64,000 nt of DNA from Vicinamibacterales bacterium (lineage in GTDB: Bacteria > Acidobacteriota > Vicinamibacteria > Vicinamibacterales > JAMQPK01). The position numbers and the translations under genes were made by a program. Below the pieces are notes generated by a model. That model was not told where the DNA came from, made no database searches, and saw only the letters and a list, made by a program, of their open reading frames with translations. Shown piece by piece: positions 4,491 through 26,196 of this stretch (its first letter is position 1; every line of letters starts with the position of its first letter). Where the stretch lies: assembly GCA_035281225.1 (NCBI GenBank), contig DATEEI010000035.1:9607-73606 (forward strand), given 5' to 3'.

Positions 4491-4491
4491 C

Positions 4492-7351: not shown

Positions 7352-7537
7352 GCGGTCTGATACTGTTCGTTTTTCTTGCCTATCCGTGGTGGTCTTCGAT
7401 GGGCGTAGTTCTTCCTGTCCTGTTGTTTGTTTCGGGAGTCGCAGTCGGGGTACTTGAGCAGCTTCGACAGCAGGAAAAGGAATGGGAAGAACAATGAAAG
7501 CCGCGGCGAGCTTGAAAGAAGATCTGATGTTACGGAA

Positions 7538-12341: not shown

Positions 12342-13262
12342 TTAGCCCGAATCAGGCAATCGCGCGTGCAGAATGCCTCGACGCGCCTCGTCCAACAGTT
12401 CAGTCGGTGAGACCAGTTGCGCGGCCTGCACTGATCCTGACATCACGACGTGTGCGCGTAGCCGTTCGTCGCCGGTGCAGATGAGCACCGGCAGCGCTAA
12501 CGCCTGGAGCATCTCCAGGTCGAACGAGTCGCCTCGCCGCTTCAGTGCGTCCGCGTTGTAGGACATGCCACCGCCAAGGGCAAGTGCAATAAAGCGAGAG
12601 CGACTACGGATGTAAGCGTCGTTTTGCCGGCGAAGGGTTGCTTCGTCCGGGCGACCACCGAAGAACGCGTGGAACTCAAGTTCCGCGACGTGGTCTTGCG
12701 TTGGCTGATATCCGGCGAGAGCCTGCTTCATCTCGCGAATCATGCCTCGCCATCCATCGCGATGTTCCTCCGACAGCCTTGTGGCGAGGTTCTCCGAACT
12801 CGCGATCCTGTACTGAACGCCATCAGAGCCCTCAAAGGTAGGTCCCGCTTCAAGGTCGGATGGCGCGCGCGCCTGGGACAAAAAGCGCCAGATCGCGATG
12901 CCATGCTCGCGGCGAGAAATCGAAGTACGTCGTGGTGGAGCAAAGAACAGGGACTGCGATTCGTCGTCGCTTGGAAAAAGTGGGGATTCTGGGTCCAGCA
13001 ACGCCGTAACGACACCAACCCGCTCCGACCAGCGGTTCCACGCTATGCGTCCTTCAAAGAGCGCCAGCGCCAATTCGGGCACAGCGTTGTTCGCAAGGCA
13101 CACCGATATGCCTGCCTCCTTCGGAACAAGTCTGTCAAAGTCTCTATATTCGGCATCGGCATACAAGATGCCGCGAACCGCCGACGTATCGAGAAGCACA
13201 CGCAGCAGCGGCACCCGACTAGATCCCTGTTCTTGTTCTTGCGGCTCTAGGTGACGACGCAT
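12342..13262 (-). CDS. hypothetical PIN-like nuclease with a large insertion
   Basis: The ORF track gives 12342..13391, which overlaps the upstream gene by 145 nt. The internal ATG at 13262 reduces the overlap to 16 nt. RVLLDTSAV (first acidic motif) and GDSFDLEMLQALALPVLICTGDERL (distal acidic motifs) resemble a split PIN fold. Weak call. Confidence 0.45.
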   Translation of the reverse strand: MRRHLEPQEQEQGSSRVPLLRVLLDTSAVRGILYADAEYRDFDRLVPKEAGISVCLANNAVPELALALFEGRIAWNRWSERVGVVTALLDPESPLFPSDDESQSLFFAPPRRTSISRREHGIAIWRFLSQARAPSDLEAGPTFEGSDGVQYRIASSENLATRLSEEHRDGWRGMIREMKQALAGYQPTQDHVAELEFHAFFGGRPDEATLRRQNDAYIRSRSRFIALALGGGMSYNADALKRRGDSFDLEMLQALALPVLICTGDERLRAHVVMSGSVQAAQLVSPTELLDEARRGILHARLPDSG

Positions 13263-14014
13263 TGGAACCACTCGATGCCCTGCTCGGCACAGACCAACCG
13301 GTATTGGGGCGGGATGTACTGGCAACAGATTGCGACGCGAACGCGTTCCTTCGCAATACTGTTCTGCGCACAATACAGTTGCCTGTGCCACAGGATCTGT
13401 CCAACAGCTTTGGCAAGTTCGTCAGCCTGAACCTTAACCTCGACGAGCATGAGTCGCCTCTCGCTGTCCTCGAACACTAGATCGACGAAACCGATCTCGC
13501 TATCCTGTGCAACGTGGACATCTCTCCCTTTCAGGGTGAGACCGGTTTCAAGAAGGTGCGGCTTAGAAGTGACCTGATCGATCAAGAGTTTGTGGATACG
13601 GCCTTCCATCCCCTTGCCGGAACGAGTTGTCCACGGTTGGCCTCCGGCGATCTTCTCCAAGTACTCGAGAGGCTCGATCTCATTTCCCGAGATGCGGCAG
13701 GGAAACACTTCGCATAACCGCGTGCCATCGTTAACAAGCAGAACCTGCTCTGGCAGCCATGCGAATGCGGATTTGCGGCTGCCAAAACTCCGACTCAGGC
13801 CGACTTTGCGTCTGACGGCGAAATCACGTAGCCCAAGCTTCTCGAGCCAATCGCGCTGCGCCGCGTACGTGGGAAACCGCGTGTCGGCGTCCTCCGTTGC
13901 GACCTCCCATCCTTTCGACTCAAGCTCGCCGAGCAGATGGCACATCCGGTTATGCGAAGCCTGGCGATCGGGATCCGAAAGAAGCGATGGCCTGTAGAAA
14001 TAAGTGATTCTCAT
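13247..14014 (-). CDS. NucS/DUF91-like PD-(D/E)xK endonuclease domain protein with an unknown N-terminal domain
   Basis: The C-terminus reads LLETGLTLKGRDVHVAQDSEIGFVDLVFEDSERRLMLVEVKVQADELAKAVGQILWHRQLY. This matches the NucS C-terminal/DUF91 pattern (iDll..d..g.lvvvE.K ... a.gQ.l.Y). Confidence 0.6.
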   Translation of the reverse strand: MRITYFYRPSLLSDPDRQASHNRMCHLLGELESKGWEVATEDADTRFPTYAAQRDWLEKLGLRDFAVRRKVGLSRSFGSRKSAFAWLPEQVLLVNDGTRLCEVFPCRISGNEIEPLEYLEKIAGGQPWTTRSGKGMEGRIHKLLIDQVTSKPHLLETGLTLKGRDVHVAQDSEIGFVDLVFEDSERRLMLVEVKVQADELAKAVGQILWHRQLYCAQNSIAKERVRVAICCQYIPPQYRLVCAEQGIEWFQCVVT

Positions 14015-14203: not shown

Positions 14204-14941
14204 TCACACGGCCCACCACCAGTTGGATCGGTAAAGCGTTACTCCCGGTAGTTTCGTCCAGTTTCGCTGCTCCCACATGTTTCGCTTCGGGCTTCCTCCC
14301 TCTTTTGAGGACTCATTCATCCTCTCGTAAACGTCAGCGGTGATCCACGTCGCAAAGTCGCCTTCGCGCAAATTCGAGAGTTTGGCGGCGTAATTTGCAG
14401 CCCGCCCCACCCACACAAGATCGTTCGAGCCGCGGATGCCGGTTCGGGCCACAAAGATCTCGCTCAGGTCGACACCAACGGCGTGCGTCAGGTTATACGT
14501 CGAGTCCGGATACTGCTTCTTGATTGCCGGGTTGATGATGTGTCGCACTGTATAGTTGATCTGCAGCCCGCATTTGGCAGAATTCGTCCGTTTGTGGTCT
14601 CCGACAAAGACAGCCATGATTCGGTCGCCATCAAAGGCCGTGATCTCGCCATCTCGTTGGCGAACAATCTTTGACGCGCAGTGCAGGAATGCCTTATAGA
14701 CTTCGGCAGCGAACGAGTCGCTGTGCTCGTTCACAAGGGCTGTCGACTCTGCCAGATCGGCGTAGAGAACGGCGGCTTCTTCAAACTTGACCGCGTCGTT
14801 GCCGAGACCCACATCTTCGGCTTCCGGAATGACGTATCCCTTCCGTGTGTTCCACCTGGTTGCGAATATGTCTTGGACCTCTGCAGCGAGTTCTTCTTTC
14901 AGGCCCATCGGAGTCTCTTCGCTCTCCCCATACGCGACCAT
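14204..14941 (-). CDS. pycC: Pycsar-type class III nucleotide cyclase (PycC-like)
   Basis: The ORF track gives 14204..15076, which overlaps the upstream gene. In-frame ATGs lie at 14941 and 14908. Class III cyclase motifs are AAVLYADLAESTALV (metal Asp), EITAFDGDRIMAVF (second Asp) and VWVGRAANYAAKLSN (Asn/Lys). The size and single-domain layout are typical of PycC. Confidence 0.8.
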   Translation of the reverse strand: MVAYGESEETPMGLKEELAAEVQDIFATRWNTRKGYVIPEAEDVGLGNDAVKFEEAAVLYADLAESTALVNEHSDSFAAEVYKAFLHCASKIVRQRDGEITAFDGDRIMAVFVGDHKRTNSAKCGLQINYTVRHIINPAIKKQYPDSTYNLTHAVGVDLSEIFVARTGIRGSNDLVWVGRAANYAAKLSNLREGDFATWITADVYERMNESSKEGGSPKRNMWEQRNWTKLPGVTLYRSNWWWAV

Positions 14942-14975
14942 TTCGTCGAGTTGTGACTCGAGTCGATGACCATAT

Positions 14976-15512
14976 TCATATCGCCTTCCAGGCGACGTAT
15001 GTCCAACCGATGATGATGAGCCCAATACAGAACAGCAGGATCGCCACCTTGATGTTGTGGTGCTTGCGCCCCGCAATGCCTGCCGACAGGTGGATCTGAT
15101 AAATCCAGTCTTCTCGCAGATCCGCAGGACTAACGCTGTTGAGGCGTTCGCGGTAATCTGCGAGAGTCACGTCGGCGATATGACCGAAATAGGTGATGGA
15201 CTTCGGGCCTCGATCCGGGTGCTCACTTTTGGCCCAACGCCACAATCGTATCCACCACTGATCCGAAGTGCGCGGAAACAGCGCTTGGAGCGACTTCGTC
15301 AGAGCGACGATTAGGAACCCGAACCCGACCAAAAACCACAACTTGTTCTCGAACGAGTTGTGCGGATCCTCAATCCACGCGATCAGCGCCGGAATCAGCA
15401 GCGCCAGAACGCCCGCTTCAACAGCCGTAAGAATGTCGACCTTAACGTCGGCGGCACGCGTCCACTCGTGAATGCGATCGAGGATGGGTTCCAAATCTTC
15501 CGTTTCAATCAT
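14976..15512 (-). CDS. pycTM: Pycsar transmembrane effector (PycTM / DUF5706-like)
   Basis: 178 aa. The N-terminus reads RAADVKVDILTAVEAGVLALLIPALIAW. It is followed by a TM hairpin, ALFPR, SITYFGHIADVTLADYRERL and IYQIHLSAGIAGRKHHNIKVAILLFCIGLIIIGW. This matches my memory of the Pycsar effector (DUF5706) family. Confidence 0.7.
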   Translation of the reverse strand: MIETEDLEPILDRIHEWTRAADVKVDILTAVEAGVLALLIPALIAWIEDPHNSFENKLWFLVGFGFLIVALTKSLQALFPRTSDQWWIRLWRWAKSEHPDRGPKSITYFGHIADVTLADYRERLNSVSPADLREDWIYQIHLSAGIAGRKHHNIKVAILLFCIGLIIIGWTYVAWKAI

Positions 15513-15595: not shown

Positions 15596-16504
15596 TCAGT
15601 TGTTCGGGCCGAGATCGTTGATGATGTCCCTGATCCGGTTGCAGGCAGGCCCCATCGCAGCAGGCAGATCCTTCGGGTCGTACTTGTATGCGATAGCTGT
15701 GATGCCGCTGAGGTCCGACGGCAACTTCACCTCTTCGCCGCGCGGCTCCAGTAACAGCGACCGGTGCCGTCCAAGCCGTCCCATGAAGAATCCGAGCTCG
15801 AAAATGACGTTGTCGCGGGGCGTGGGCTTCGCCTCACCGCGGCTCTCCGTCAGGTCGTCGGGTTGCGCGATGGCGATCGCGAAGTCCGACTGGTCAAGTT
15901 CGCGTTCAAGGCTTTCCACTGGATAGCAGGACGCCCGAAAAACGCCGTCGGTCCAGATGACGACTGTGAATGGATCGTATTCGAATGCATTCTGAACGCC
16001 CCGTGCGATCGGCAGAGCCTCCACGGACGAGATGATAAACACGCGGATCTTCTCGCGCCGCGTTGTGATGAGCAAATTGCGCTGCATGAGGCGGCGCGCC
16101 AGTTCTTTTGCGATGGCCCGGTAGATATTTGGGTATTTCTGTCCAAGGGCCGACAGCTGCGGTTCGGTGAGTTTTAGTACAACCGAGGGTTCCGCCGCGA
16201 CGACCGTGGCGGAACGGCGCTGCGAGGGCTGAATGGCGGCCATCTCGCCGACACAATCGGTCGGACCCCGCATCGCGACCTTCTTGCCATTCACGAGAAT
16301 CGTGAATGAACCGGCGAGGATCAGAAAGCAGTCTGTATCCTGGCCGTTCTGGTCGATTATTGGGGTATCCGGCACGATCTCGCGGAGCTCGCCGACGGCG
16401 GCCATCTCCTCGGCCAGCGCTTCGTTGCCGCCTACAATCTTCTGCTCTTTGAGCACGTCGACCAGGACGCGGCGTCCGTGCTCACCCTCGAATCGATCCT
16501 TCAT
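15596..16504 (-). CDS. cyclic-nucleotide-binding domain fused to a TIR-like (CAP12/PycTIR-type) effector domain
   Basis: The ORF track gives 15596..16582. ATG at 16504 is preceded by GGAGGAG. The cNMP phosphate-binding cassette reads CVGEMAAIQPSQRRSATVVAAEP. The C-terminal half reads IRVFIISSVEALPIARGV ... NVIFELGFFMGRLGRHRSLLL ... KLPSDLSGI, which fits the TIR-like nucleotide-binding domain family. Confidence 0.8.
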   Translation of the reverse strand: MKDRFEGEHGRRVLVDVLKEQKIVGGNEALAEEMAAVGELREIVPDTPIIDQNGQDTDCFLILAGSFTILVNGKKVAMRGPTDCVGEMAAIQPSQRRSATVVAAEPSVVLKLTEPQLSALGQKYPNIYRAIAKELARRLMQRNLLITTRREKIRVFIISSVEALPIARGVQNAFEYDPFTVVIWTDGVFRASCYPVESLERELDQSDFAIAIAQPDDLTESRGEAKPTPRDNVIFELGFFMGRLGRHRSLLLEPRGEEVKLPSDLSGITAIAYKYDPKDLPAAMGPACNRIRDIINDLGPNN

Positions 16505-16557
16505 CGCCCAATCTCCTCCAGCCGCCACGGAGTTCGATGCTTTCGTCGTGAAGTGGC

Positions 16558-17094
16558 TTAGCTCTTTGTCGAACGCGACCACTCGCTCATATATCGAAGT
16601 AGCTTACGCAGGCCGCGAACTCCAGAGTGTTCGTGCTCGTAGTGGATCGCTACGGTTACTGGCAGTGCATTGGGAGTAAAAGCCATCGCCGAGACATCGA
16701 TCCTCCTGCCTGCGGTAAGCGTCGCGATAAGCAGTATGAGGAAGTTGGCGCCCACCTTCGGATCCTCAACGAGGGACTGCATGGTCGCGATGTCGACCGC
16801 GCTTGGCAACGGCTCGAACGTCGGATGCGAATGCCACTCACCGAGATAGTTAAAGCGCGTGAAGTCCTGGCCCGTGCGAGCAAAGAACGATCTGAGCTGC
16901 ACGTCATGGTTCGCTGGATCACGTACGAACTGTGTGTGCGACCCACCGGATCGCTGCACTGACACGTCGACGACGCGAAACACTCCCTCGCGGACATGCT
17001 CACCCATCATGAGTCCGCCGATCTCCTGCGCCCCCGCTCGCTTGAGTTCCCGACGAATTCGCTGGAGGATTCGAGCCGGCAGGAGAAGCTGCAT
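16558..17094 (-). CDS. cap3: JAB/JAMM metalloprotease (Cap3-like)
   Basis: The catalytic Glu context is AQEIGGLMMGEHV. A perfect JAMM motif follows: HSHPTFEPLPSAVD (H-x-H-x7-S-x2-D). Confidence 0.8.
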   Translation of the reverse strand: MQLLLPARILQRIRRELKRAGAQEIGGLMMGEHVREGVFRVVDVSVQRSGGSHTQFVRDPANHDVQLRSFFARTGQDFTRFNYLGEWHSHPTFEPLPSAVDIATMQSLVEDPKVGANFLILLIATLTAGRRIDVSAMAFTPNALPVTVAIHYEHEHSGVRGLRKLLRYMSEWSRSTKS

Positions 17095-18781
17095 TCTGGT
17101 AGTCCGTTAGCAACTGGATAACGGTCGCGATCTCCGCTGCCGCTTCCGGGGAATCGGTGCCCGCGTCTGTGCGCTGCGGCTGGCCGACGTCGATTGGATA
17201 CGTATCGAATGGCGCCTCGAAAATCCAGCCTTTAGAGAGACCGATCAGGTAAACAGAATTCGGGAACATTGACGGTGTCCGTGCGAGAAGCGTGTCGATT
17301 GCCAGCCGTGCTGCATGTGCTGCGAGCACCGTGACATCCGCATCATCGGCAATCAGAGGTGCTTCTTCGGCGCCGCCGTAGTCATTCGCTGCGCGAGCGA
17401 TCGGCTTGCCCCGGTCAGCGCACCAGGCTTCAATCATGCGGCGCATCGACGCCGGATCAGGTTCGTGATCGGGCCGGTGGCGAGCTACCAGACCACCAAA
17501 GCCGCCGCCGAAGACCTCCGCCCAGACCAACGCCCTCTTACCGAGAGCCACTGCGGCACAAAGGTAGTTGAAGGCAACCGGGTTTGCGGTTGCATCCACG
17601 ATGAGATCGCATCCCGCGAGACTTTCGATCAGCGTCTCGACGCTTCCACTTGCTTCCTGGCCACCGAGGCGGTGCCGGCGCCGTTCGCAGCTCGCTCCCG
17701 GGTTAACCAGCTGAATTCGACGTGCTACGCTGTCGGCTTTGTGAGTTCCGATTTCGCGCCAATCCAAATCATGGCGCACGAGATTGTCGGGCAACATCAT
17801 GTCGTCATCGACCAAGAGGAACTTCTTCGCTCCTGAACGAGCCAACATCACCGCGATCTTGCTGCCGATTGAGCCGCACCCGATGACCGCAACTTTTCCT
17901 TCCGCCAAGGCCGCATGATCCGGGTCGAGTCGAGGCGACGTGGGCGGAAGCACGATCACGGCTGGCTGCCAGACCTGAGCATCTTCGTCGCCAAGACCGT
18001 AAGCGTGTATCTGCGATCCCTGCAGCAGCAACACATGCGAGACGTTCGGAATCGACAAGCCGCGTTCGCGTGCTCCCGCTCGAAACTCAGCTGACGTCTT
18101 CACCGACAGTCGCCGGACGCCTTCCGGCCACCTGAAGATTGCGATCTCCCGCTCCCACCCTTCAGCGCGGAAAGGCTCTGGCATTTCATGCTCGACCCAC
18201 GTCTCGCCGCTCGGCATCGCAATGGAACTAATGGCGTTGACCCATGACTCTTCGTGCAATGCGCCCACAGCTTTGGCCGAGACGACGACGTCGTCGTCGA
18301 CCCTCGCTAACGCCTCGGCCGCACCACGCGTGATCACGAACCGCGTAAACCTGTTTCGCAGGTCCTGTCCGAGAGTGGTCTTGTGACGAGACGGGACGAG
18401 AGCCGCTTCGCCGGTGATACTCTCGCTGCTCAGCAGTCGATAGGCGCTGAGGATCATGTCGGCGCCGGTAATCTCCGGATGCCAATTGTCCGGGCCATAT
18501 TCGAGACACAATTCACCGCCCGGTCCGTACTGGTGCGACGACCAATGCTCCGAGTCACCGCGTGGAAGGACCACAGGTGGTGAGTGCGGAAAGTGATTGG
18601 GGTACCGCAATGACACGGGATAAGTACGCTCGTGCGTCGAAAGATCAATGTCCCAGATGAGACGCAGCGATTCGTCGACCCTGAGCCCGAGCGGCGTCAT
18701 CCACGTAACCTGTGACGCGAGCGTTTCGATCGCTTCCCGTTCGCGTTTGCTGCGCGCGGGATTGTCGAAATACCAGATCAT
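17000..18781 (-). CDS. cap2: E2-like + E1 (ThiF)-like fusion protein (Cap2-like)
   Basis: The N-terminal prokaryotic E2-like region reads YPNHFPHSPPVVLPRGDSEHWSSHQYGPGGELCLEYGPDNWHP. The central ThiF/E1 Rossmann fold reads KVAVIGCGSIGSKIAVMLARSGAKKFLLVDDDMMLPDNLVRHDL ... CDLIVDATANPVAFNYLC. Its ATG overlaps the cyclase stop (ATGA at 18778-18781). Confidence 0.8.
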   Translation of the reverse strand: MIWYFDNPARSKREREAIETLASQVTWMTPLGLRVDESLRLIWDIDLSTHERTYPVSLRYPNHFPHSPPVVLPRGDSEHWSSHQYGPGGELCLEYGPDNWHPEITGADMILSAYRLLSSESITGEAALVPSRHKTTLGQDLRNRFTRFVITRGAAEALARVDDDVVVSAKAVGALHEESWVNAISSIAMPSGETWVEHEMPEPFRAEGWEREIAIFRWPEGVRRLSVKTSAEFRAGARERGLSIPNVSHVLLLQGSQIHAYGLGDEDAQVWQPAVIVLPPTSPRLDPDHAALAEGKVAVIGCGSIGSKIAVMLARSGAKKFLLVDDDMMLPDNLVRHDLDWREIGTHKADSVARRIQLVNPGASCERRRHRLGGQEASGSVETLIESLAGCDLIVDATANPVAFNYLCAAVALGKRALVWAEVFGGGFGGLVARHRPDHEPDPASMRRMIEAWCADRGKPIARAANDYGGAEEAPLIADDADVTVLAAHAARLAIDTLLARTPSMFPNSVYLIGLSKGWIFEAPFDTYPIDVGQPQRTDAGTDSPEAAAEIATVIQLLTDYQNAASPAGSNPPANSSGTQASGGAGDRRTHDG

Positions 18782-20334
18782 GCAAACCCATCCGGTTTCG
18801 CGGGACCTGCCGGTCGACTCGGGAAGGTGAAAGACGAAGGCGCAGGCGTTGCCGGTTTCAGCGACCCGGCCGCGGCCATCGCCCGAGCGGCTTTAGCAGT
18901 GGCGTCATTCTTGTCGGCCAACTCTCTGACCGCGATGTCGTAAGTCAGCCCCGATCGCTTCCGCGATTTCCCGAACACCGCGCGCACTGCATCGTTACCG
19001 CTGTCGTACGCGATGGACCCAATCGCCGTTTCCGTGCCGGCGCAGCGCGACTGCTCGCGTTCGGCGGCAACAACGCCGCGGCTAGCCGAACAGCGTACCA
19101 ACTCGCCCTTGATGCCAAGGCGCGTTACGTTCATCGGTCCGTACTCGAATCCGATGGCCAGGCCAAGACTGCTAGCGTCGGTGCCATTCGCCTTGAGCTT
19201 CGAGATGGCGAGCTCAAAGCTGCTGCGCATGCCGCCGGCGCACAGCGTCTGGTTGCTGATGGTCTCGATCTCGTCCGACGTCTGCGCTGTGCCCTCTACA
19301 AGGAGCCCATGAACGCAGTCGCCGATAAACCGCACTTTCCGGCCGGCGAAGTCGGTGTGAAGCACAGCGTCCAGTTCACTGCGCAGCACATGCAACGCGC
19401 GCACGACGTGTTTAGCGGTGGCGTCAGTTGTGATGTTCTTGGTCACGTAGGCGGTGAAGCCGTCGACATCGGCATAGACCGTAGCCGCATCCTGACGTCG
19501 CGTGTTCTTCACCGACAGCTCTTCGATGTCGAGCGTGCTGAAGGGCGGCGTATGCCCGCTGAAGCCAAAGGCGCCGATAGGACTATTCTTGAGATCGTCC
19601 TTCCATTCCTTCACAATCTCGTCGGCCGTGACATCCAAGGCCGCCTTGTCTTGTGACTTCGAGATCTCCTGGGCGGTGAGCGGCGTGGTGTCTTCGTTGT
19701 CGACGCGCTTCAGACCGAGCGTCTCGCGGGCTTTGTTCGTCAGATAGATTCCCGTCGCCGCCCCTCCCGATGCGCGCTTCGCGGCTTGATTCGCTGGCTC
19801 TCCAAGGAACAGGGGTTCCCGATGGCCTCGGCGTCCGTTGTTCACGGCGAGGGCTTCACCGGTGTCGATCCCCACTCTGACCTTCGCGGCAGGATGGTCG
19901 GCGTCCTCGCCGGTCTGCGCGAGCACGTCGATGATCAGCTGCGCCACGGCGACGGCCTTGTGAATGCGGTCGATCTCCGAGTCATACGGCTTCGCGATCA
20001 CCGAGTGCAGACGCTGATTGTGAAAGTCGACAAAGATGGCGTCCACCCGCTGAAGGGTCCGATGGACGGCTCGGTAATGCAGGTTGAGGAATCGGAGCGT
20101 CCGCCGGTGGCAAGTCTCGCCTTCCACCTCGGTGACGTGAAGCATGTCCGCTAGGTTGAGAATGTCGGCGTAGAGGTGGACGCCGTGGAGGCGGTACGCG
20201 ATGTTCCGAGGCAGGCTGGTCAGGTCCGTCTCGCGCACGAACTTCTTGATCACGATGTCGCCGATCGGAAGGTCAGCGATGCAGGCATCGATGCGCTTCG
20301 CGGCTCGGTCTTTGTCCCAGGTACGTGTAGCCAC
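18778..20334 (-). CDS. tandem class III nucleotide cyclase (two cyclase-homology domains in one chain, PycC-related)
   Basis: The ORF track gives 18778..20415 with a TTG start and no SD. GTG at 20334 is preceded by GGAGGAAGAAGAC and is the more plausible start. Domain 1 motifs are HLYADILNLADM and RVGIDTGEALAVNNGRRGHREPLFLGEPANQAAKRAS. Domain 2 motifs are ATVYADVDGFTAYV, VRFIGDCVHGLL and GLAIGFEYGPMNVTRLG. Confidence 0.75.
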   Translation of the reverse strand: MATRTWDKDRAAKRIDACIADLPIGDIVIKKFVRETDLTSLPRNIAYRLHGVHLYADILNLADMLHVTEVEGETCHRRTLRFLNLHYRAVHRTLQRVDAIFVDFHNQRLHSVIAKPYDSEIDRIHKAVAVAQLIIDVLAQTGEDADHPAAKVRVGIDTGEALAVNNGRRGHREPLFLGEPANQAAKRASGGAATGIYLTNKARETLGLKRVDNEDTTPLTAQEISKSQDKAALDVTADEIVKEWKDDLKNSPIGAFGFSGHTPPFSTLDIEELSVKNTRRQDAATVYADVDGFTAYVTKNITTDATAKHVVRALHVLRSELDAVLHTDFAGRKVRFIGDCVHGLLVEGTAQTSDEIETISNQTLCAGGMRSSFELAISKLKANGTDASSLGLAIGFEYGPMNVTRLGIKGELVRCSASRGVVAAEREQSRCAGTETAIGSIAYDSGNDAVRAVFGKSRKRSGLTYDIAVRELADKNDATAKAARAMAAAGSLKPATPAPSSFTFPSRPAGPAKPDGFA

Positions 20335-20523
20335 GTCTTCTTCCTCCAGGTAGTTCACCCTGCTCGGCTGTGCTTCGGGAGGTAAATCCTGCGGAAGCGG
20401 GCGGAACCGGCTCAATGCACGGTTGACCGATGGTGCCGATGAGCGTACTCTTAAATGGGCCTAGTTTCTAGGACCAGTATAGTTAATATACCCATTCTGG
20501 CAGTGCTCAGCAAGGGGGTTTTT
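20335..20523. promoter_or_regulatory. divergent promoter/operator region between the cyclase operon and the WYL regulator
   Basis: This is a locally AT-rich patch in a GC-rich window. It contains a perfect palindrome CCTAG-TTT-CTAGG (20460..20472) and an inverted repeat GTATA-GTTAA-TATAC (20477..20491). Confidence 0.45.
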
Positions 20524-21465
20524 TTGGACAATGATCGTCGGCGTCGAGGGCCTGAGCAGCGCCTTGAATTCATCGAGTTCCGACTGTATTGGGAAGGGGC
20601 GGTAAACCGGAGCGACCTCGTTGAGCGGTTCGGCGTGTCTGTGCCCCAAGCGTCAAATGACCTGACGGCGTATCGGCAGCTAGTACCCGAGAACGTGGCC
20701 TACGATTTGAGCGGGAAGCGATACGTCCCTGCCACGACCTTCCGCCCGAAGTTCCTGAAGCCGAATCCAGACCGATACCTCGCCCAGTTGAAAGCCATGT
20801 CCGACGGAATCCTCGACGTCACCGATACATGGCTCGCCAGTCAGCCTGACACCGGCGTCTTGCCGATCCCGAACCGACGCACAGACCCGTCAGTGTTGCG
20901 GGCTGTGCTGATGGCCGTCCGAGCAAAGGGCAGCGTCCACGTGGAATACCAATCAACCAGTCCTGAGAATCCGGACCCGATTTGGCGGTGGATCACTCCG
21001 CACGCATTTGGGTTCGATGGACTGCGGTGGCACGTCCGTGCGTTCTGTCATCGTGACAATCGCTTCAAGGACTTCATTCTCGGCCGCTGTCTCGCCGTCG
21101 GCGAGCAAGGTCCCGCCGCCGCAGTGGCCGAAAAGGATTGGCAGTGGCAAACGTTCTTTGAAGTCGTTCTGCAGCCTAACCCAGATCTGGCGGACGGTCA
21201 GCGCCGAGCGGTTGCTCTCGACTACAACATGATCGAGGGGAGGATCGCAGTCCCCGTACGCTTTGCTCTGTTGTACTACTTCAACAAGCGCCTACGCCTG
21301 GATGTCGCCGAGCGGTTTGACAAGCCACGCGAGCGCCCAGTCGTCGTGGCAAACCAGGCGGACTTTGAAGCCGCACTGCAAAAGGCAGACGCCCCGTTAT
21401 CCACGTCAGAGAGAGTCGCGCAGCAAGCTGAAGGTGCCACGGCTTCTAGCCACTTGAGTCCGTGA
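20524..21465 (+). CDS. WYL-domain transcriptional regulator (CapW/BrxR-like)
   Basis: The ORF track start is ATG 20455, but the first 23 codons are AT-rich rare codons spanning the palindromes. TTG at 20524 follows AAGGGGG. The N-terminal wHTH reads RLEFIEFRLYWEGAVNRSDLVERFGVSVPQASNDLTAYRQL. The WYL-like core reads SVHVEYQSTSPENPDPIWRWITPHAFGFDGLRWHVRAFCHRDNRFKDFILGRC. Confidence 0.8.
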   Translation: MDNDRRRRGPEQRLEFIEFRLYWEGAVNRSDLVERFGVSVPQASNDLTAYRQLVPENVAYDLSGKRYVPATTFRPKFLKPNPDRYLAQLKAMSDGILDVTDTWLASQPDTGVLPIPNRRTDPSVLRAVLMAVRAKGSVHVEYQSTSPENPDPIWRWITPHAFGFDGLRWHVRAFCHRDNRFKDFILGRCLAVGEQGPAAAVAEKDWQWQTFFEVVLQPNPDLADGQRRAVALDYNMIEGRIAVPVRFALLYYFNKRLRLDVAERFDKPRERPVVVANQADFEAALQKADAPLSTSERVAQQAEGATASSHLSP

Positions 21466-21561: not shown

Positions 21562-21987
21562 TTACGACGAGCCAGCGTCCTCGAGCATGAGCTGTCGGTT
21601 CACGGTGGCAACGAAGTCGTAGAGTTCTCCAGAGCGGACGACCTCCGCTCCAAGCGCCAGTTTTCCTTGCGCAGCACGAATCACCGTTTTCATCGTCGCG
21701 TCGAAACCGATAACGATCCACCACTCCTGACCGTCAACCTCCGTAGACCAGGCTGTGTTCACGAACTTTCCCTTATCAGTCCGGACCTCGGCGGTCATCA
21801 GACGCCAACGATCTGGATCGAAGTTCTGAAGTTGTTCGAGAGGAGCGCCACGTTCATAGCTGCGGTCTTGAACATGGCGAGCGTGGGTCTTCAACACTCG
21901 CACGTCCCGCATTTTGAAGCGAACCCGCTCAAAGAGTTCTGGTGGGCCGGTCAATGTGTGGAAACGAGCAACATGAAACTTCGGCAT
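21562..21987 (-). CDS. small hypothetical protein (possibly DUF4258/RelE-fold-like), the last gene of the large defence operon
   Basis: The ORF track gives 21562..22041. ATG at 21987 shares 1 nt with the PLD stop (TGATG). The segment THARHVQDRSYERGAPLEQLQNF loosely resembles DUF4258. Weak family call. Confidence 0.4.
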   Translation of the reverse strand: MPKFHVARFHTLTGPPELFERVRFKMRDVRVLKTHARHVQDRSYERGAPLEQLQNFDPDRWRLMTAEVRTDKGKFVNTAWSTEVDGQEWWIVIGFDATMKTVIRAAQGKLALGAEVVRSGELYDFVATVNRQLMLEDAGSS

Positions 21988-24566
21988 CAAGCTCCGACGA
22001 CTCGCTGAGAAGCGGCGTCCATGGTGACCCACTCGACGCACTTGACATGAGTCGTGAGGAATTGGCGTTCCTCGTCTTCAACCTCAGCGTCGAAGACTGT
22101 GATCTTGTCCGAGGCGCCAGAAGGGACGACTTCGAGAGCGATGCGAACACGTGGATCGAGCGCCGAGCCGAGGATGACGAGGTCACCGGGACGGGGCGCG
22201 CGACCGGACTTCCGGACCGCCTCCGGGGTCTTCTCGACATCGGCCAAAAAATCTGCCAGGCGAAGATGACTCGCGACCCAGGAGTTGCCGTCAGCATCTC
22301 TTCGCGCTGTCCGACCGACGGCCTGGCTGAGGGTATCGCGCGCTTCTAGGTCGCCAGCTAGCTGACCGGCGATCGCGGCAAACACCTGAATCGGGTACCA
22401 CGGGCTGTCCTCCTCCTCCAGGTCGATTGGGCTAGTCCGGTTGACCGCGGCCCTAACGTTGATCTCCATTTCCCACGCTAACCACGCTAGCAATCCAATC
22501 GCGAGGGATAGTTCCTGGAATGGCTCGCCATCCCCCTCCTTTAGCGATCTTGGCGCTAACGATGAACCGCCCCAAGTGAGCGCCAACCCGCCAGCTTCGA
22601 ACAGCACCCACTCATCATTTGGGTCCACGAGCGTCAGATGCTTCGAGCGCCACTCCGTCCGCTGCTCCATGGTACGAAGGGTGTGCACGACGCTGAGGAC
22701 TGCGGCAAGCTGCACGACTGCACGCCGAGCGACACCATCGCGCGCTGCATCGAGCTGTTTCACCATTCGCCTAATCAGCCGACCGACCTTACCGCGGCAC
22801 AAATCCGCCAAGACTTCGTACGGAGGGGGAGGCGGTGGAGGCTCCTCATCTCCGGCGTCGTCGTCGGTGACGGGCAGCACTTCTTCAGCTGGTGGACGCG
22901 GCGGCGCCGGCGCCAACAGGCCCTCGCCGAGCCGGCACATCAAGGCATCCAACAGAACGAGGATGTCGCCGCTGGCCAACCGTTTCTTCTTCCGACCGGA
23001 GCGTCGGCCAGCCGCGTCCACGGCGAGCGACTCTGGGCCGGGTTCATGGGTCTCTGCACGGTTGGTCTCCGTCTTTCGACGGATGGCAGGTTCGGGAGTG
23101 ACTACGTCGTCCGAGTCGAAGATTACCTTCTGTGTCAGCTTCAGGAGCGCGTCGAGCTGTGCAGGATCCTCGTCGAGTGCTCCGAGGAGTTGTCGCAATT
23201 CACGCTGCCGGTCACCGCCAACGTTCCTGGCAACTTCATCAGGTCGATGGACCAGCACCACCACCCGTTTCTTTCCGGGACCGAACCCACGCAAGGTCTG
23301 TGCGGCGTCGCGTACGGCATCCGCTGCGTCGATGGCCAATTCGTTACCCGTGCGCGTGAGTGCTTGGCCCAGGTTGCTGCCATCTGCAGCGAAGGCATCG
23401 AGCACGATTCGCGGGCCTATCGGTCGCTCGAGTGCAAAGCCGTCGTCTGAGGGGACGGCAAGCACTACCGTCCCGCGGCCGTCCGACTTCTCCTCGACGA
23501 GGTCGGCCTGCCTATCTGCGACTTTGGTCCATTCCTTCGCTCCAACACTCGGTGCAGCCACGAACGCGTCAATGCCGAGTGCCTTCGCGGCTCCTTCGCG
23601 ACGATCGACAACCACAGCTTCGGCGTTTCTGAAGTGGTCCACCGGCAAAAAAGCCGCTTGCGAGGGATTTGCACTACCGGTCACGAGGAGCTCACCTTCA
23701 GAGCCCTCGAACCAAAGAACCTTCGCGTGCAGATACGTCGTGGCGGACTCTCGGCGATTGGGCACGCGCGGGAGTCCCGCAACGTTTACGAATTCGGCAC
23801 CACGGAACTTTCGAACCGACGCAGGGTCGATCTCGACTGACTCTGGGTCGATTCCGACGACAAGCCTGCGCGGCTTCACATCATCAAGGAGCTGTTGCAG
23901 AAATCCGAGCTTCTTGTCGAAGTACGGCCCGCACACGAAGGCTGTCGATGGTCGCTTGGGAACCATGGGCCTAATTCGTGACCACAGATCCGCATCATCA
24001 CCGGTTGTTGTCAGAAGGATTCGTTCGGTCGATTCAACGGCCATCGGACCGTCAAGCCATGGAATGTTCCGTCCGACGGAAGCGAACACCTGGTCCATGT
24101 CGGTGAGCCCGGTCGGCACGAATGTCCGCAGGTAGTCCAGCGCTGCGCGAATGACCGCGGCCCCTTGGCGGGCTCCCGCTCCACTGGTTCTGAACTCATT
24201 CGTGATCTCGTCGTTCAATCCAAAGCCTGCAAGTGTCGTGTTATGGCTGCCGACGAACAACGCACCTTTCGATTTTCCGAGAGCGACGATGAGTTTCGGA
24301 TGAAACGCTCCGCGGAGATGAACCGGAACCAGCGTGTAGTCGCGGCCGGCGCGCTTAGGTCGCGTGTCGTCGCACGCGAAAGCCTCAGCACACAGAGCGG
24401 CGTCGACAAGCAAGATGTTGTTGGTGCAACCCCGGTCCAGCAGACGACGAAGTACGACCTCCTCGTAGAAAGGAAAGTAGCAGCAGTACGTGGCTATTAT
24501 CGAAGCCTGAAAGCCGGTCTCGGAAAGTGCTTCGAGCAATGAGAACGACGCTGCCTCACGAGGCAC
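21987..24566 (-). CDS. PLD-family (two HKD motifs) nuclease-like protein with a long uncharacterised C-terminal region
   Basis: HKD-1 reads FHPKLIVALGKSKGALFVGSHNTTLAG and HKD-2 reads YLHAKVLWFEGSEGELLVTGSANPSQAAF. An acidic poly-Pro linker DDDAGDEEPPPPPPPYEVL follows. The remaining ~350 aa is unrecognised. Confidence 0.8.
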   Translation of the reverse strand: MPREAASFSLLEALSETGFQASIIATYCCYFPFYEEVVLRRLLDRGCTNNILLVDAALCAEAFACDDTRPKRAGRDYTLVPVHLRGAFHPKLIVALGKSKGALFVGSHNTTLAGFGLNDEITNEFRTSGAGARQGAAVIRAALDYLRTFVPTGLTDMDQVFASVGRNIPWLDGPMAVESTERILLTTTGDDADLWSRIRPMVPKRPSTAFVCGPYFDKKLGFLQQLLDDVKPRRLVVGIDPESVEIDPASVRKFRGAEFVNVAGLPRVPNRRESATTYLHAKVLWFEGSEGELLVTGSANPSQAAFLPVDHFRNAEAVVVDRREGAAKALGIDAFVAAPSVGAKEWTKVADRQADLVEEKSDGRGTVVLAVPSDDGFALERPIGPRIVLDAFAADGSNLGQALTRTGNELAIDAADAVRDAAQTLRGFGPGKKRVVVLVHRPDEVARNVGGDRQRELRQLLGALDEDPAQLDALLKLTQKVIFDSDDVVTPEPAIRRKTETNRAETHEPGPESLAVDAAGRRSGRKKKRLASGDILVLLDALMCRLGEGLLAPAPPRPPAEEVLPVTDDDAGDEEPPPPPPPYEVLADLCRGKVGRLIRRMVKQLDAARDGVARRAVVQLAAVLSVVHTLRTMEQRTEWRSKHLTLVDPNDEWVLFEAGGLALTWGGSSLAPRSLKEGDGEPFQELSLAIGLLAWLAWEMEINVRAAVNRTSPIDLEEEDSPWYPIQVFAAIAGQLAGDLEARDTLSQAVGRTARRDADGNSWVASHLRLADFLADVEKTPEAVRKSGRAPRPGDLVILGSALDPRVRIALEVVPSGASDKITVFDAEVEDEERQFLTTHVKCVEWVTMDAASQRVVGA

Positions 24567-26196
24567 GACATGCCTCCAGCTCCTTCCGCCCGTTACTCGT
24601 CAGGATCGGCCATGCGTCAGCGTCGAGGTCTGTCAGGTCGAGGTCACGCAGAATCTGAAATGCTTTACCGAGTCGAGGGACTGTCGCGGCGGGGGGCGGT
24701 ACTTCGACGACACGAAGTTCTTGTTCCAGTGGACGGATCCTGAACGTGTCGCGGCGCTCCCCTCGAAGCTTGCGAAGAGCCACGCTCAGGTGACGCTGAA
24801 TTCCCCAATGCACAGACAACCATCGAACCCATTGCTCGACCGTCATGTCCGCCCACGTGGATTGCCACGCCTGCTTGAACGAGAGCAGGTGGACTTCCCT
24901 GGGGTCGAAGTAGTCAGGCTCGAACTCGAACTCCGCGTACGGATTTTCGTCAAGGCCTCTAGCGAGCAACGACAGCAGGATCTGGATCCCTTCCTCGACC
25001 TGTACCTCAAGCGCAGTTTCGTCAGCGTGCGTCTCGAGAATCTTCCAACCGCGCTGGATCTCGTGACCGTCGTTCTGCCACGCGCTGATGTCAGGCAAGC
25101 CCGACGCAAGGTCCGAGACGACGTCCGCGAGACGGCGTTTACGAAACCGGCCAGACGAGGGGAGGAGATTTACGCAGATATCACCTGCCGCCGCGGCGGT
25201 CGGCAGTCTCCCCGAGTGGTCGCGCTCTATCGCGCGAAGAACGGCAGCAAACAGGGCTTGCAATGCGAGAGAGAGCAGTTCGTTCTGTTCGTAAATCGCC
25301 CAACCGCCTTGAACGCGGAGAAATGATGAGGGCACATCCCACGGCTTGCCGTCGGGAAGTGCCCTACTGTATGTCGCTGCGCGGAAGACACTCTCCAAGC
25401 TGTAGCCCTCAAGCCGACTACAGCGGTCGACGAGGTCCAAGGCCAATGCGAGGGTTACGCGGCGGTTCGTTGACTCCGCCGACTGGTACGCTTCCGATCT
25501 AACGAGAAAGAGATCGAGAAGCAGCGTGCGCTCCACCTGACGGTTGCGTAAGCTGCACGGACAGAACTCAGCGAGGCCATCAAGCTCGGACCAGCGGATC
25601 TTCGGCCTCTCCAGTAGCCGGAAGAACTCATCCTCAGGCATTCCCGTCGCAAATGCCTCGGCTAGGGCGCTACCCCGCACTTTGTCATAGCCCGGGATTG
25701 CTCCGTCTTTCTCGGACGTGTAATCGAGGACCCGAAGATCGCGTAACGCACCGAAGTAGTACTGACCCAGGCCTCCAGCTGGATTCTTGAAGTACCGACT
25801 GGAACCCTCTAAATCTGCATGGTCGTCCAGTCTGATCGCGTCGGAGTCTTCTGCGATTCTAAGCAGGCTCTGTCTGCCAACCATTCCAAGACCATGGCGT
25901 CCAGCGTCACGATCGTTCAGCACTCGAGCATGACGAATTGCTATCAGGGCGAACAAACACTCCGCCCGGCGCAGAACGCGACGGAACTCTTCGATGGAGT
26001 GGTCTCGATAACGTTGTTCAAACGACCGAATCAGCCAAGGATTAAAGCTGTAATACCGCGCGCGGTCGGTAACGTTAGTGATGCCCGGAACCAGCTGGGA
26101 GTACAAGGCGATGCACGGCGCCTGCACGCCGAGGTGATCAAGTCCCCTAATGGGCTTCGCGGGCTCTACCCAGCCGAGGTCGGTCGGTCGACTCAT
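24556..26196 (-). CDS. hypothetical protein (546 aa), operon component of unknown function
   Basis: Clean ATG start with balanced composition. The N-terminal motif GLDHLGVQAPCIALYSQLVPGITNVTDRARYYSFNPW is reminiscent of uncharacterised families linked to DNA-modification systems, but I cannot name one with confidence. The gene overlaps the PLD gene by 11 nt. Confidence 0.55.
   Translation of the reverse strand: MSRPTDLGWVEPAKPIRGLDHLGVQAPCIALYSQLVPGITNVTDRARYYSFNPWLIRSFEQRYRDHSIEEFRRVLRRAECLFALIAIRHARVLNDRDAGRHGLGMVGRQSLLRIAEDSDAIRLDDHADLEGSSRYFKNPAGGLGQYYFGALRDLRVLDYTSEKDGAIPGYDKVRGSALAEAFATGMPEDEFFRLLERPKIRWSELDGLAEFCPCSLRNRQVERTLLLDLFLVRSEAYQSAESTNRRVTLALALDLVDRCSRLEGYSLESVFRAATYSRALPDGKPWDVPSSFLRVQGGWAIYEQNELLSLALQALFAAVLRAIERDHSGRLPTAAAAGDICVNLLPSSGRFRKRRLADVVSDLASGLPDISAWQNDGHEIQRGWKILETHADETALEVQVEEGIQILLSLLARGLDENPYAEFEFEPDYFDPREVHLLSFKQAWQSTWADMTVEQWVRWLSVHWGIQRHLSVALRKLRGERRDTFRIRPLEQELRVVEVPPPAATVPRLGKAFQILRDLDLTDLDADAWPILTSNGRKELEACRAS

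What the first reader, a model, noticed from the sequence alone, without database searches (positions are those of the whole stretch)
18778..18915. Disordered C-terminal tail of the cyclase ending in ...PDGFA, directly abutting the E1-E2 gene: a candidate conjugation handle
The last ~45 residues (AKAARAMAAAGSLKPATPAPSSFTFPSRPAGPAKPDGFA*) are rich in A/P/S/G and of low complexity. They end in small residues. In type II CBASS the Cap2 E1 domain activates the flexible C-terminus of the cyclase, and Cap3 removes or trims conjugates. An analogous tail on a class III cyclase would be the expected substrate feature if the Cap2/Cap3-like genes act on it.
Basis: inference. Interest (0 to 1): 0.6.

Follow-up and report, generated by a model that had tools for sequence, protein, structure and literature searches.

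The report
Conjugation handle on a Pycsar cyclase
The anti-phage cyclase in this window ends in a floppy tail whose last residues (…KPDGFA) are kept only in relatives that sit next to a ubiquitin-like E2-E1 ligase and a JAB peptidase, so the tail is most likely the point where that ligase attaches the cyclase to other proteins; this extends a mechanism already known from CBASS to a named but little-studied Pycsar variant.

Summary
The minus-strand cyclase ends …SFTFPSRPAGPAKPDGFA*, and its stop overlaps the E2-E1 start (ATGA). The last 45 residues are the most A/P/S/G/T-rich, lowest-entropy stretch of the protein.

Two corrections. Only residues 489-518 are predicted disordered, because 478-488 form the last helix. 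The final ~17 residues are a conserved motif, not noise. The gene also starts at GTG 20334 (518 aa), not TTG 20415.

The operon is a clade-A tandem PycC, a Cap2-like E2-E1, a Cap3-like JAB and a PycTIR effector. This layout is already named "type II Pycsar" or "Pycsar-like-4".

I examined 160 related loci:
- All 99 cyclases followed by an E2-E1 end in G-[F/Y]-[A/S], with one K-F-A exception.
- All 55 without one are followed by a stand-alone E2 and end in [R/K/N]-[P/A]-[H/Y/F] plus 2-8 residues.
- None lacks both partners.
- Two cyclases whose cores nest inside the E2-E1 clade carry the other tail together with the other enzyme.

The conjugation-handle reading is well supported by comparison but is not shown biochemically. 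It is a new member of a known kind, of moderate interest.

The parts
18778..20334 (-). Clade-A (tandem-domain) Pycsar cyclase PycC, 518 aa. The likely start is GTG 20334; the mechanical ORF extends to TTG 20415.
   Evidence: PADLOC PycC PDLC00762, E=5.9e-215. Pfam Guanylate_cyc, two stretches. PDB 6YII (PaPycC, clade A), E=2.3e-174, and Foldseek TM 0.96, rmsd 1.6 A. Shine-Dalgarno plus GTG. Homologue lengths.
18871..18903 (-). Last helix of the folded core (residues 478-488, ATAKAARAMAA).
   Evidence: AlphaFold2 model with mean pLDDT 92.3 shows a helix at 478-488. Homology with the E2-only branch continues through this helix.
18832..18870 (-). Variable A/P/S/T-rich linker (residues 489-501, AGSLKPATPAPSS).
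   Evidence: No secondary structure from residue 489, and pLDDT below 50 from residue 493. This is one of the least conserved stretches of the protein (information 2.3-2.8 bits against 3.3 for the core), and it varies in length between loci.
18781..18831 (-). Conserved C-terminal motif (residues 502-518, FTFPSRPAGPAKPDGFA). Ala518 is the proposed residue to be adenylated and conjugated.
   Evidence: Position-by-position conservation. G-F/Y-A/S is invariant in 57 distinct sequences from E2-E1 loci. The motif is absent from all 55 E2-only loci.
18778..18781 (-). ATGA overlap of the cyclase stop and the E2-E1 start (translational coupling).
   Evidence: Read directly from the sequence. The stop and start overlap in 53 of 58 related loci: NTGA in 39 and TGATG in 14.
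17000..18781 (-). Cap2-like E2-E1 fusion protein, 593 aa. E2 Cys92; adenylation domain about 285-560.
   Evidence: PADLOC E1-E2 PDLC00855, E=1.3e-200. Pfam ThiF 2e-21 and weak UQ_con. PDB ThiF, Cap2 (7TSQ, 7TSX, 7TO3) and UBC9. C92 and the adenylation residues are invariant in 53 family members.
16558..17094 (-). Cap3-like JAB/JAMM metallopeptidase, 178 aa (E24, H88-S-H90, S98, D101).
   Evidence: Pfam Prok-JAB 6.7e-14. PADLOC JAB 8e-61. Rpn11 hits in the PDB. Motif positions.
15596..16582 (-). PycTIR effector: a cyclic-nucleotide-binding domain plus a TIR NADase domain. The probable true start is Met27, at about 16504.
   Evidence: Pfam CAP12-PCTIR_TIR 2.1e-34 and cNMP_binding 3.3e-12. PADLOC PycTIR 6.7e-121, aligned from residue 27.
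20455..21465 (+). Divergently transcribed WYL-domain regulator (CapW/BrxR-like), probably the transcriptional control of the operon.
   Evidence: Pfam WYL 4.8e-6 and PADLOC WYL 2.2e-11. A 92%-identical gene sits at the same position in L002, and homologues sit upstream of PycC in L022, L057, L058, L062, L064, L067 and L072.

Best explanation
The locus is a four-gene 'type II' Pycsar anti-phage operon: PycC, E2-E1, JAB and PycTIR, under a divergent WYL regulator.

PycC is a tandem class III cyclase. Its folded core ends in a helix at residue 488. A ~13-residue variable A/P/S/T linker follows, and then a conserved 17-residue end, …F-x-F-P-x-R-P-x-G-P-x-K-P-x-G-F-A.

Proposed mechanism, all steps inferred by analogy with type II CBASS:
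1. The E1 (ThiF-like) domain of the E2-E1 protein binds the free C-terminus and adenylates Ala518 with ATP.
2. The acyl group passes to a cysteine. That is certainly E2 Cys92 at some stage, possibly via E1 Cys454.
3. The acyl group then passes to a lysine of an unknown target. This gives PycC-target isopeptide conjugates that prime or boost cyclic-nucleotide synthesis during infection.
4. The JAB peptidase cleaves after Ala518, which reverses or limits conjugation.
5. The cyclic nucleotide binds the CNBD of PycTIR and switches on its TIR NADase.

Shown here:
- The anatomy of the locus.
- Predicted disorder of the tail.
- Conservation of the tail's end.
- Intact adenylation, E2 and JAMM catalytic residues.
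- Strict co-occurrence of the tail type with the enzyme type.

Not shown here: any covalent intermediate, the target, or the effect on cyclase activity.
For: - Gene identities.
- Tail shape: a high-confidence AF2 model has a folded core (pLDDT above 90), no secondary structure from residue 489 and pLDDT below 50 at 493-511 and 515-518. The crystal chain of the homologue 6YII holds 473 residues of a 514-aa chain sequence, which is compatible with an unmodelled tail.
- Conserved end: it is nearly invariant in 119 close homologues and in 57 distinct sequences at 55-91% identity, while the linker drifts.
- Co-variation: 99 of 99 E2-E1 loci have an x-[F/Y]-[A/S] end (98 with Gly at -3). 0 of 55 E2-only loci do.
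- Tail tracks the enzyme, not the core: on a tree built from tail-less cores the neighbour type changes only twice. The second change (L036, L129) carries the tail swap with it.
- Coupling: the stop/start overlap is conserved in 53 of 58 loci, and synonymous codon variation occurs at Phe-Ala.
- Intact enzymes: E2 Cys92 and the adenylation residues G301/G303/G306/K308, R315, D325/D327, N333/R336, K348 and D392 are conserved in at least 95% of 53 family members. The JAMM motif is intact.
- Precedent: a CD-NTase terminal Gly/Ala is required for the Cap2 thioester and conjugation, and is conserved only with full-length Cap2 and Cap3 (PMC10097602). The CD-NTase tail is disordered with a conserved end, and the tail-AMP adduct was seen in the Cap2 E1 site (bioRxiv 10.1101/2022.03.31.486616).
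- The same logic has been applied to Thoeris TIRs that have Cap2/Cap3 neighbours (bioRxiv 10.64898/2025.12.03.692087).
Against: - There is no biochemical evidence for this protein or, in the papers I could read, for any PycC (one search found none). The paper cited for type II Pycsar (van den Berg 2024) is not held.
- The association rests on about two evolutionary switches, not 154 independent samples.
- The candidate E1 catalytic Cys (C454) is Cys in only 35 of 53 family members. The chemistry may therefore differ from CBASS Cap2 (C548).
- The penultimate Phe and the long conserved motif have no described counterpart in CD-NTases. Part of the motif may serve something else, such as JAB or E2 recognition.
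Confidence: 0.72

Rival explanations
1. The tail is a non-covalent docking peptide. It recruits or regulates E2-E1 or JAB, or auto-inhibits the cyclase, but is not itself adenylated or ligated. E2-E1 would then modify some other substrate.
For: A 17-residue conserved motif is longer than an E1 needs for a terminal Gly/Ala. CD-NTases show little conservation beyond the last residue (PMC10097602; PMC12948482). The E1 Cys is not universally conserved.
Against: The strongest conservation is at the very last three residues, and the protein ends exactly there in 99 of 99 loci. A free carboxylate at a fixed position is what an adenylating enzyme needs, not what a docking motif needs. No ubiquitin-like gene is present in the tightly packed operon; the genes overlap and no ORF is left over.
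Confidence: 0.13
2. The tail is a C-terminal degradation or quality-control tag. Its non-polar end would be recognised by a housekeeping protease such as Tsp or ClpXP, keeping cyclase levels low. The link with E2-E1 would be incidental.
For: Short non-polar C-termini after a flexible stretch can act as degrons in bacteria (general knowledge, not tested here). Every basic residue of the tail is followed by Pro (K-P, R-P, K-P), which suggests that proteolytic accessibility matters.
Against: A host-protease degron would not switch sequence class in step with the neighbouring gene across Acidobacteriota, Alpha-, Beta- and Gammaproteobacteria.
Confidence: 0.05
3. The tail is just a fast-evolving, functionless low-complexity extension. 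Its similarity among homologues reflects recent common descent.
For: Residues 489-501 are poorly conserved and vary in length.
Against: The last 8-10 residues are more conserved (3.5 bits) than the protein average (3.3 bits) at 55-91% identity. Synonymous changes accumulate at the terminal codons without amino-acid change. The motif is replaced as a unit when the partner enzyme changes.
Confidence: 0.03

Closest known systems
Type II CBASS: CD-NTase C-terminus + Cap2 (E2-E1) + Cap3 (JAB) (Ledvina 2023; Jenson 2023, PMC10097602)
   Same: - A signalling nucleotide cyclase with an extended disordered tail and a conserved small terminal residue (Ala here; Gly/Ala there).
- An adjacent E2-E1 fusion and a JAB gene.
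- The terminal conservation is restricted to operons that have both enzymes.
   Different: - The cyclase is a tandem class III (Pycsar) enzyme, not a CD-NTase fold.
- The conserved end is much longer (about 17 residues with invariant G-F-A), whereas CD-NTases vary at the penultimate position.
- The E2-E1 matches a separate PADLOC model (PDLC00855) and matches PDB Cap2 only over about 100 residues of the E1 domain, at E of about 1e-6.
- The E1 catalytic Cys is not conserved across the family.
'Type II Pycsar' (Ye et al. 2024 preprint, 10.1101/2024.11.21.623953) / 'Pycsar-like-4' (bioRxiv 10.64898/2026.08.12.744502)
   Same: The operon class is the same: a Pycsar-type cyclase with E2, E2-E1 and JAB genes and often a WYL regulator. 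Both papers already suggest or state ligation of the signalling enzyme.
   Different: The passages I could read do not describe the cyclase's C-terminal motifs or their co-variation with the enzyme type. The primary reference (van den Berg 2024) could not be read.
E2-CBASS ('type II short'): CdnG + stand-alone E2 (bioRxiv 10.1101/2022.05.25.493364; PMC12948482)
   Same: It is the analogue of the sister branch found here, PycC plus a stand-alone E2. In E2-CBASS the E2 cleaves a C-terminal extension and becomes covalently linked to the cyclase C-terminus without an E1.
   Different: - The window's operon is the E2-E1/JAB type, not this type.
- In the PycC E2-only branch the conserved residue before the short extension is aromatic or His (RP[Y/H/F]) rather than Gly.
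- The E2 there is the E2-ntca + E2-Crich family.
Thoeris operons with Cap2/Cap3 (bioRxiv 10.64898/2025.12.03.692087)
   Same: Another non-CD-NTase signalling enzyme (the TIR protein ThsB) has acquired a C-terminal tail with a conserved Gly when it is paired with Cap2/Cap3.
   Different: The signal-producing enzyme and the tail sequence are different.
PaPycC, PDB 6YII (clade-A PycC of Pseudomonas aeruginosa)
   Same: 56% identical, with the same tandem-cyclase fold (TM 0.96).
   Different: Its C-terminal region resembles the E2-only type (compare L079). It is therefore probably not a GFA-tail protein.

Membership tests
Cap2/Cap3-type conjugation substrate (as defined for type II CBASS CD-NTases) | Extended, disordered C-terminal region beyond the folded catalytic core | tested here: met
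   AF2 (mean pLDDT 92.3): the core is above 90, there is no secondary structure from residue 489, and pLDDT is below 50 at 493-511 and 515-518. The tail has the highest TOP-IDP score and the lowest entropy in the protein.
Cap2/Cap3-type conjugation substrate (as defined for type II CBASS CD-NTases) | Conserved Gly or Ala as the very last residue | tested here: met
   The last residue is Ala518. It is Ala in 53 and Ser in 4 of 57 distinct sequences. In the second set the ends are GFA, GFS or KFA.
Cap2/Cap3-type conjugation substrate (as defined for type II CBASS CD-NTases) | The terminal conservation is present only when full-length E2-E1 and JAB are encoded alongside | tested here: met
   99 of 99 E2-E1 loci have the ending against 0 of 55 E2-only loci. 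L036 and L129 are natural swaps. A few E2-E1 loci (L005, L018, L021) lack a detectable JAB and look decayed.
Cap2/Cap3-type conjugation substrate (as defined for type II CBASS CD-NTases) | Forms an acyl-adenylate, a thioester with E2-E1, and isopeptide conjugates through its C-terminus | not testable with these tools
   This needs biochemistry.
CBASS (membership of the system itself) | The signal is made by a CD-NTase (cGAS/DncV-like nucleotidyltransferase) | tested here: not met
   The enzyme is a class III cyclase (Pfam Guanylate_cyc, PADLOC PycC, PDB 6YII). The locus therefore works like type II CBASS but is not a CBASS.
Pycsar, clade A PycC + PycTIR | Two consecutive class III cyclase domains in one chain, and a CNBD-TIR effector in the operon | tested here: met
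   Two Guanylate_cyc stretches. The tandem fold superposes on 6YII. PycTIR is identified by Pfam and PADLOC. The definition of clade A is taken from PMC11224242.
Pycsar, clade A PycC + PycTIR | Produces a cyclic pyrimidine mononucleotide (cUMP/cCMP) on infection | not testable with these tools
   PMC11224242 says clades A-D make cUMP. A 2026 preprint predicts an ATP preference for this lineage from AF3 models. The question is unresolved.
Cap2-like E2-E1 fusion | N-terminal E2 domain with a catalytic Cys | tested here: met
   Cys92 in G-E-L-C-L-E-Y-G-P-D-N-W is invariant in 53 of 53. UBC9 and UQ_con match residues 52-122.
Cap2-like E2-E1 fusion | C-terminal ThiF/Atg7-like adenylation domain with intact nucleotide and Mg sites | tested here: met
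   Pfam ThiF 2e-21. Invariant GxGxxGxK, D325/D327, N333/R336, K348 and D392.
Cap2-like E2-E1 fusion | E1 catalytic Cys (C548 in E. cloacae Cap2) | tested here: inconclusive
   The window protein has Cys454 at roughly the expected offset. That column is Cys in only 35 of 53 members and F, S or W in the others, and no other Cys in the E1 domain is invariant. Structural equivalence was not established.
Cap3-like JAB peptidase | JAMM motif E…HxH…S…D | tested here: met
   E24, H88-S-H90, S98 and D101. Pfam Prok-JAB and JAB.

The most novel reading that the evidence does not exclude
All tandem (clade-A) Pycsar cyclases may be obligate partners of ubiquitin-type enzymes, and they may use two non-canonical handles.

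1. In the E2-E1/JAB branch the handle is a long motif ending in G-F-A. It would be activated by an E2-E1 family that has no universally conserved E1 cysteine. That implies direct transfer from the acyl-adenylate to E2 Cys92.
2. In the E2-only branch the handle ends in R-P-[Tyr/His/Phe] followed by a propeptide of 2-8 residues (most often 4). The stand-alone E2 would cleave the propeptide and ligate through an aromatic or His C-terminus, not through Gly/Ala.

Tail and enzyme would then be exchanged together as one module between cyclase lineages.
Probability: 0.3. Interest if true: 0.6.

Novelty: new member of a known kind. Interest (0 to 1): 0.4.

Why it matters
It extends the rule that a signalling enzyme can act as its own ubiquitin-like modifier from CD-NTases to an unrelated cyclase fold, and it does so with a clean comparative test. 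It also supplies concrete reagents:
- the residue to delete (Ala518, or the G-F-A end);
- the cysteine to mutate (Cys92);
- a natural control branch with a different tail and a different enzyme.

The targets and purpose of cyclase conjugation are still unknown even in CBASS. A second, independent substrate class with a much longer conserved recognition motif could help to separate what the E1, the E2 and the JAB each read. None of this overturns current understanding.

Tried and rejected
- AF2 with a shallow alignment (35 sequences, at least 75% identical) gave a poor model (mean pLDDT 53). I rejected it as evidence for disorder and replaced it with the 62-sequence run.
- I built a paired alignment of E1 domain + GS linker + tail from 25 loci, imitating the crystallised Cap2-tail fusion, to ask whether GFA docks in the adenylation site.
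- The 62-sequence alignment was too diverse for the search for related loci. A 22-sequence subset worked.
- BLASTP of the window's E2 domain against the stand-alone E2 found no significant similarity (E=0.19). I do not claim that the two E2s are the same family.
- Several papers are not held: Ledvina 2023 (final version), Tal 2021, van den Berg 2024 and the Hobbs & Kranzusch review. A search for PycC with 'conjugat' returned only unrelated yeast and Plasmodium papers.
- I computed a Fisher test on rough locus counts and do not use it. The loci are related and the neighbour type changes only about twice on the tree.
- The + strand ORF 18712-19656, antisense to the tail, was treated as a by-product of high G+C. 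It matches nothing, and the minus-strand frame is conserved across 160 loci.


Full report
**What is in the window.** On the minus strand lies a tightly packed operon:
- A cyclase ORF at 18778-20415. Its likely real start is GTG 20334, which has a GGAGGA 8 bases upstream. That gives 518 aa, the length of most homologues.
- A 593-aa E2-E1 fusion at 17000-18781.
- A 178-aa JAB peptidase at 16558-17094.
- A CNBD-TIR effector at 15596-16582.
- A WYL regulator at 20455-21465, transcribed divergently on the + strand.

PADLOC identifies these genes as PycC (E=5.9e-215), E1-E2 (1.3e-200), JAB (8e-61) and PycTIR. The cyclase is 56% identical to PaPycC (PDB 6YII) and superposes on it with TM 0.96. PaPycC is the structural representative of clade-A PycC, the clade with two consecutive cyclase domains (PMC11224242).

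**Check of the observation.**
- The quoted sequence, the coordinates and the ATGA stop/start overlap are all correct.
- The last 45 residues are 67% A/P/S/G/T against 35% elsewhere.
- They have the lowest entropy of any 45-residue window and sit at the 99th percentile of disorder propensity.
- A first AF2 model from a shallow alignment was unusable.
- A second model, from 62 diverse homologues, has mean pLDDT 92.3. It shows a helix at 478-488, no secondary structure from residue 489, and pLDDT below 50 at 493-511 and 515-518.
- The flexible tail is therefore about 30 residues long.

**The tail is not merely low-complexity.**
- In the 120 closest database homologues (at least 74% identical), 119 end in …F-[S/T]-F-P-N-R-P-T-G-P-[S/A]-K-P-[D/A]-G-F-A. 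The middle of the tail varies.
- Across 57 distinct sequences at 55-91% identity, Gly(-3) is invariant, Phe(-2) is replaced only once (by Tyr), and the last residue is Ala in 53 and Ser in 4. Pro(-5), Lys(-6), Pro(-8) and Phe(-15) are strongly conserved.
- The last ten residues carry more information (3.5 bits) than the protein average (3.3 bits). The linker carries 2.3-2.8 bits.
- All four Ala codons and both Phe codons are used at the last two positions. The constraint is therefore on the peptide.

I fetched two sets of loci with flanks:
- 80 genome loci, from a scan with a moderately diverse alignment.
- 80 metagenome loci, from a scan seeded with distant relatives.

| Gene after PycC | Genome set | Metagenome set | Total | Cyclase C-terminus |
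|---|---|---|---|---|
| E2-E1 (nearly always with JAB and PycTIR) | 58 | 41 | 99 | G-[F/Y]-[A/S] in 98; K-F-A in one (L095) |
| Stand-alone E2 of about 260 aa (Pfam E2-ntca + E2-Crich) | 20 | 35 | 55 | [R/K/N]-[P/A]-[H/Y/F] plus 2-8 residues (mode 4 in the genome set) |
| Contig cut short | 2 | 4 | 6 | not assessable |
| Neither partner, locus complete | 0 | 0 | 0 | – |

Homology between the two tail types runs through the last helix up to a shared …P-A and then stops.

On a neighbour-joining tree of tail-less cores, the E2-E1 type forms essentially one clade. The neighbour type changes only twice. The 154 loci are therefore not independent samples. The second change is informative, though. 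L036 and L129 have cores that nest among E2-E1-type cyclases. The window's PycC is among the nearest neighbours of L129, and L036 is 64% identical to it. Yet both carry the RP[Y/H] tail and a stand-alone E2. The tail type follows the enzyme, not the core.

**The enzymes look competent.**
- In 53 family members at 33-77% identity, E2 Cys92 is invariant, and so are the adenylation-site residues GxGxxGxK, D325/D327, N333/R336, K348 and D392.
- The JAB has E24, H88-S-H90, S98 and D101.
- Stop/start overlap between PycC and E2-E1 is kept in 53 of 58 loci.
- One difference from CBASS Cap2 stands out. The only plausible E1 cysteine (C454 here) is Cys in just 35 of 53 members. Cap2 uses C548.

**Most likely mechanism.** This is inferred by analogy with type II CBASS (PMC10097602; bioRxiv 10.1101/2022.03.31.486616):
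1. The E1 domain adenylates the free carboxylate of Ala518.
2. The acyl group moves to cysteine (E2 Cys92, perhaps via C454).
3. It then moves to lysines of unknown targets, priming the cyclase.
4. JAB cleaves after Ala518.
5. The cyclic nucleotide activates the PycTIR NADase.

The protein ends exactly at the conserved Ala, so JAB is not needed to expose it. I put this mechanism at 0.72. The rivals are a non-covalent docking or auto-inhibitory peptide (0.13), a protease degron (0.05) and a functionless extension (0.03). They fit the co-variation and the exact-terminus conservation less well.

**Relation to what is known.**
- The operon class is already named 'type II Pycsar' and is said to conjugate its signalling enzyme.
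- A 2026 preprint calls the lineage 'Pycsar-like-4'. It notes the E2, E1, JAB and WYL associations and suggests ligation to targets.
- The same tail logic has been applied to Thoeris TIRs with Cap2/Cap3 neighbours.
- The E2-only sister branch parallels E2-CBASS, where the E2 cleaves a C-terminal extension and links to the cyclase.
- In the papers I could read I found no description of the PycC tail motifs or of their co-variation, and no PycC conjugation experiment. The key primary paper (van den Berg 2024) is not held.

**Verdict.**
- The locus works like type II CBASS but is not a CBASS.
- It is a member of an already recognised Pycsar variant.
- Interest is moderate (0.4).
- The more novel leads are the aromatic-ended handle of the E2-only branch, the missing E1 cysteine, and the fact that no clade-A PycC was found without an E2-type partner.

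Noticed in passing
L036, L052, L055, L057, L061-L066, L069, L070, L072-L077, L079, L080; L081-L090 and others (the gene directly after PycC, e.g. L055:8536-9324): A sister branch of clade-A PycC has no E2-E1 or JAB. Between PycC and PycTIR it has a ~260-aa stand-alone E2 (Pfam E2-ntca + E2-Crich). These cyclases end in [R/K/N]-[P/A]-[H/Y/F] plus 2-8 residues (e.g. …RPYAEGK, …PRAHSDR). That looks like a propeptide to be cut, as in E2-CBASS, but after an aromatic or His residue instead of Gly.
   Followed up: partly
L036 (PycC 7001-8512) and L129 (PycC 4001-5515): These two cyclases have cores that nest within the E2-E1-type clade, but they carry the RP[Y/H] tail and a stand-alone E2. This suggests that the tail and the enzyme are exchanged together as one 3' module.
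   Followed up: partly
All 160 loci L001-L160: No complete locus has a clade-A (tandem) PycC without either an E2-E1 or a stand-alone E2 next to it (99 + 55; 6 contigs are truncated). PaPycC (PDB 6YII) looks like the E2-only type, judging by its C-terminal region.
   Followed up: partly
window 17420-17422 (Cys454 of E2-E1); family alignment of 53 sequences: The only candidate E1 catalytic cysteine is Cys in 35 of 53 family members and F, S or W in the rest. E2 Cys92 is invariant. The adenylate may be attacked directly by the E2 cysteine in this family.
   Followed up: partly
window 18781-18861 (tail residues 492-518): Every basic residue in the tail is followed by proline (K-P, R-P, K-P), and this is conserved in homologues. 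The tail would resist trypsin-like cleavage. That matters for the design of mass-spectrometry experiments and perhaps for the biology.
   Followed up: no
window 14204-15512, minus strand: A second, two-gene Pycsar lies directly downstream. It has a PycTM effector (14976-15512) and a single-domain PycC (ORF 14204-15076, probable start Met57 at about 14908). A similar short PycC + TM pair follows PycTIR in L062 (10185-11526).
   Followed up: no
window 20455-21465 (+): A WYL-domain regulator is transcribed divergently from PycC. A 92%-identical copy sits at the same place in L002. WYL genes also sit upstream of PycC in both branches (L022, L058, L067; L057, L062, L064, L072).
   Followed up: no
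window 17000-17094: The E2-E1 ORF overlaps the JAB ORF by 95 nt. The overlapping part encodes a low-complexity C-terminal extension of E2-E1 (…NAASPAGSNPPANSSGTQASGGAGDRRTHDG). The extension varies among relatives.
   Followed up: no
window 13247-14014 and 21987-26196, minus strand: Other probable defence genes flank the operon. They are a NucS_C-like nuclease (255 aa), an 859-aa PLD-like protein with a weak PADLOC ZacB hit, and an adjacent 546-aa ORF. The region looks like a defence island.
   Followed up: no
L095 (PycC end at about 4869); L005, L018, L021: L095 is the single E2-E1 locus whose cyclase ends in K-F-A instead of G-F-A. L005, L018 and L021 keep the GFA tail, but their E2-E1 is truncated or altered and no JAB is detectable. 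These may be decaying operons.
   Followed up: no
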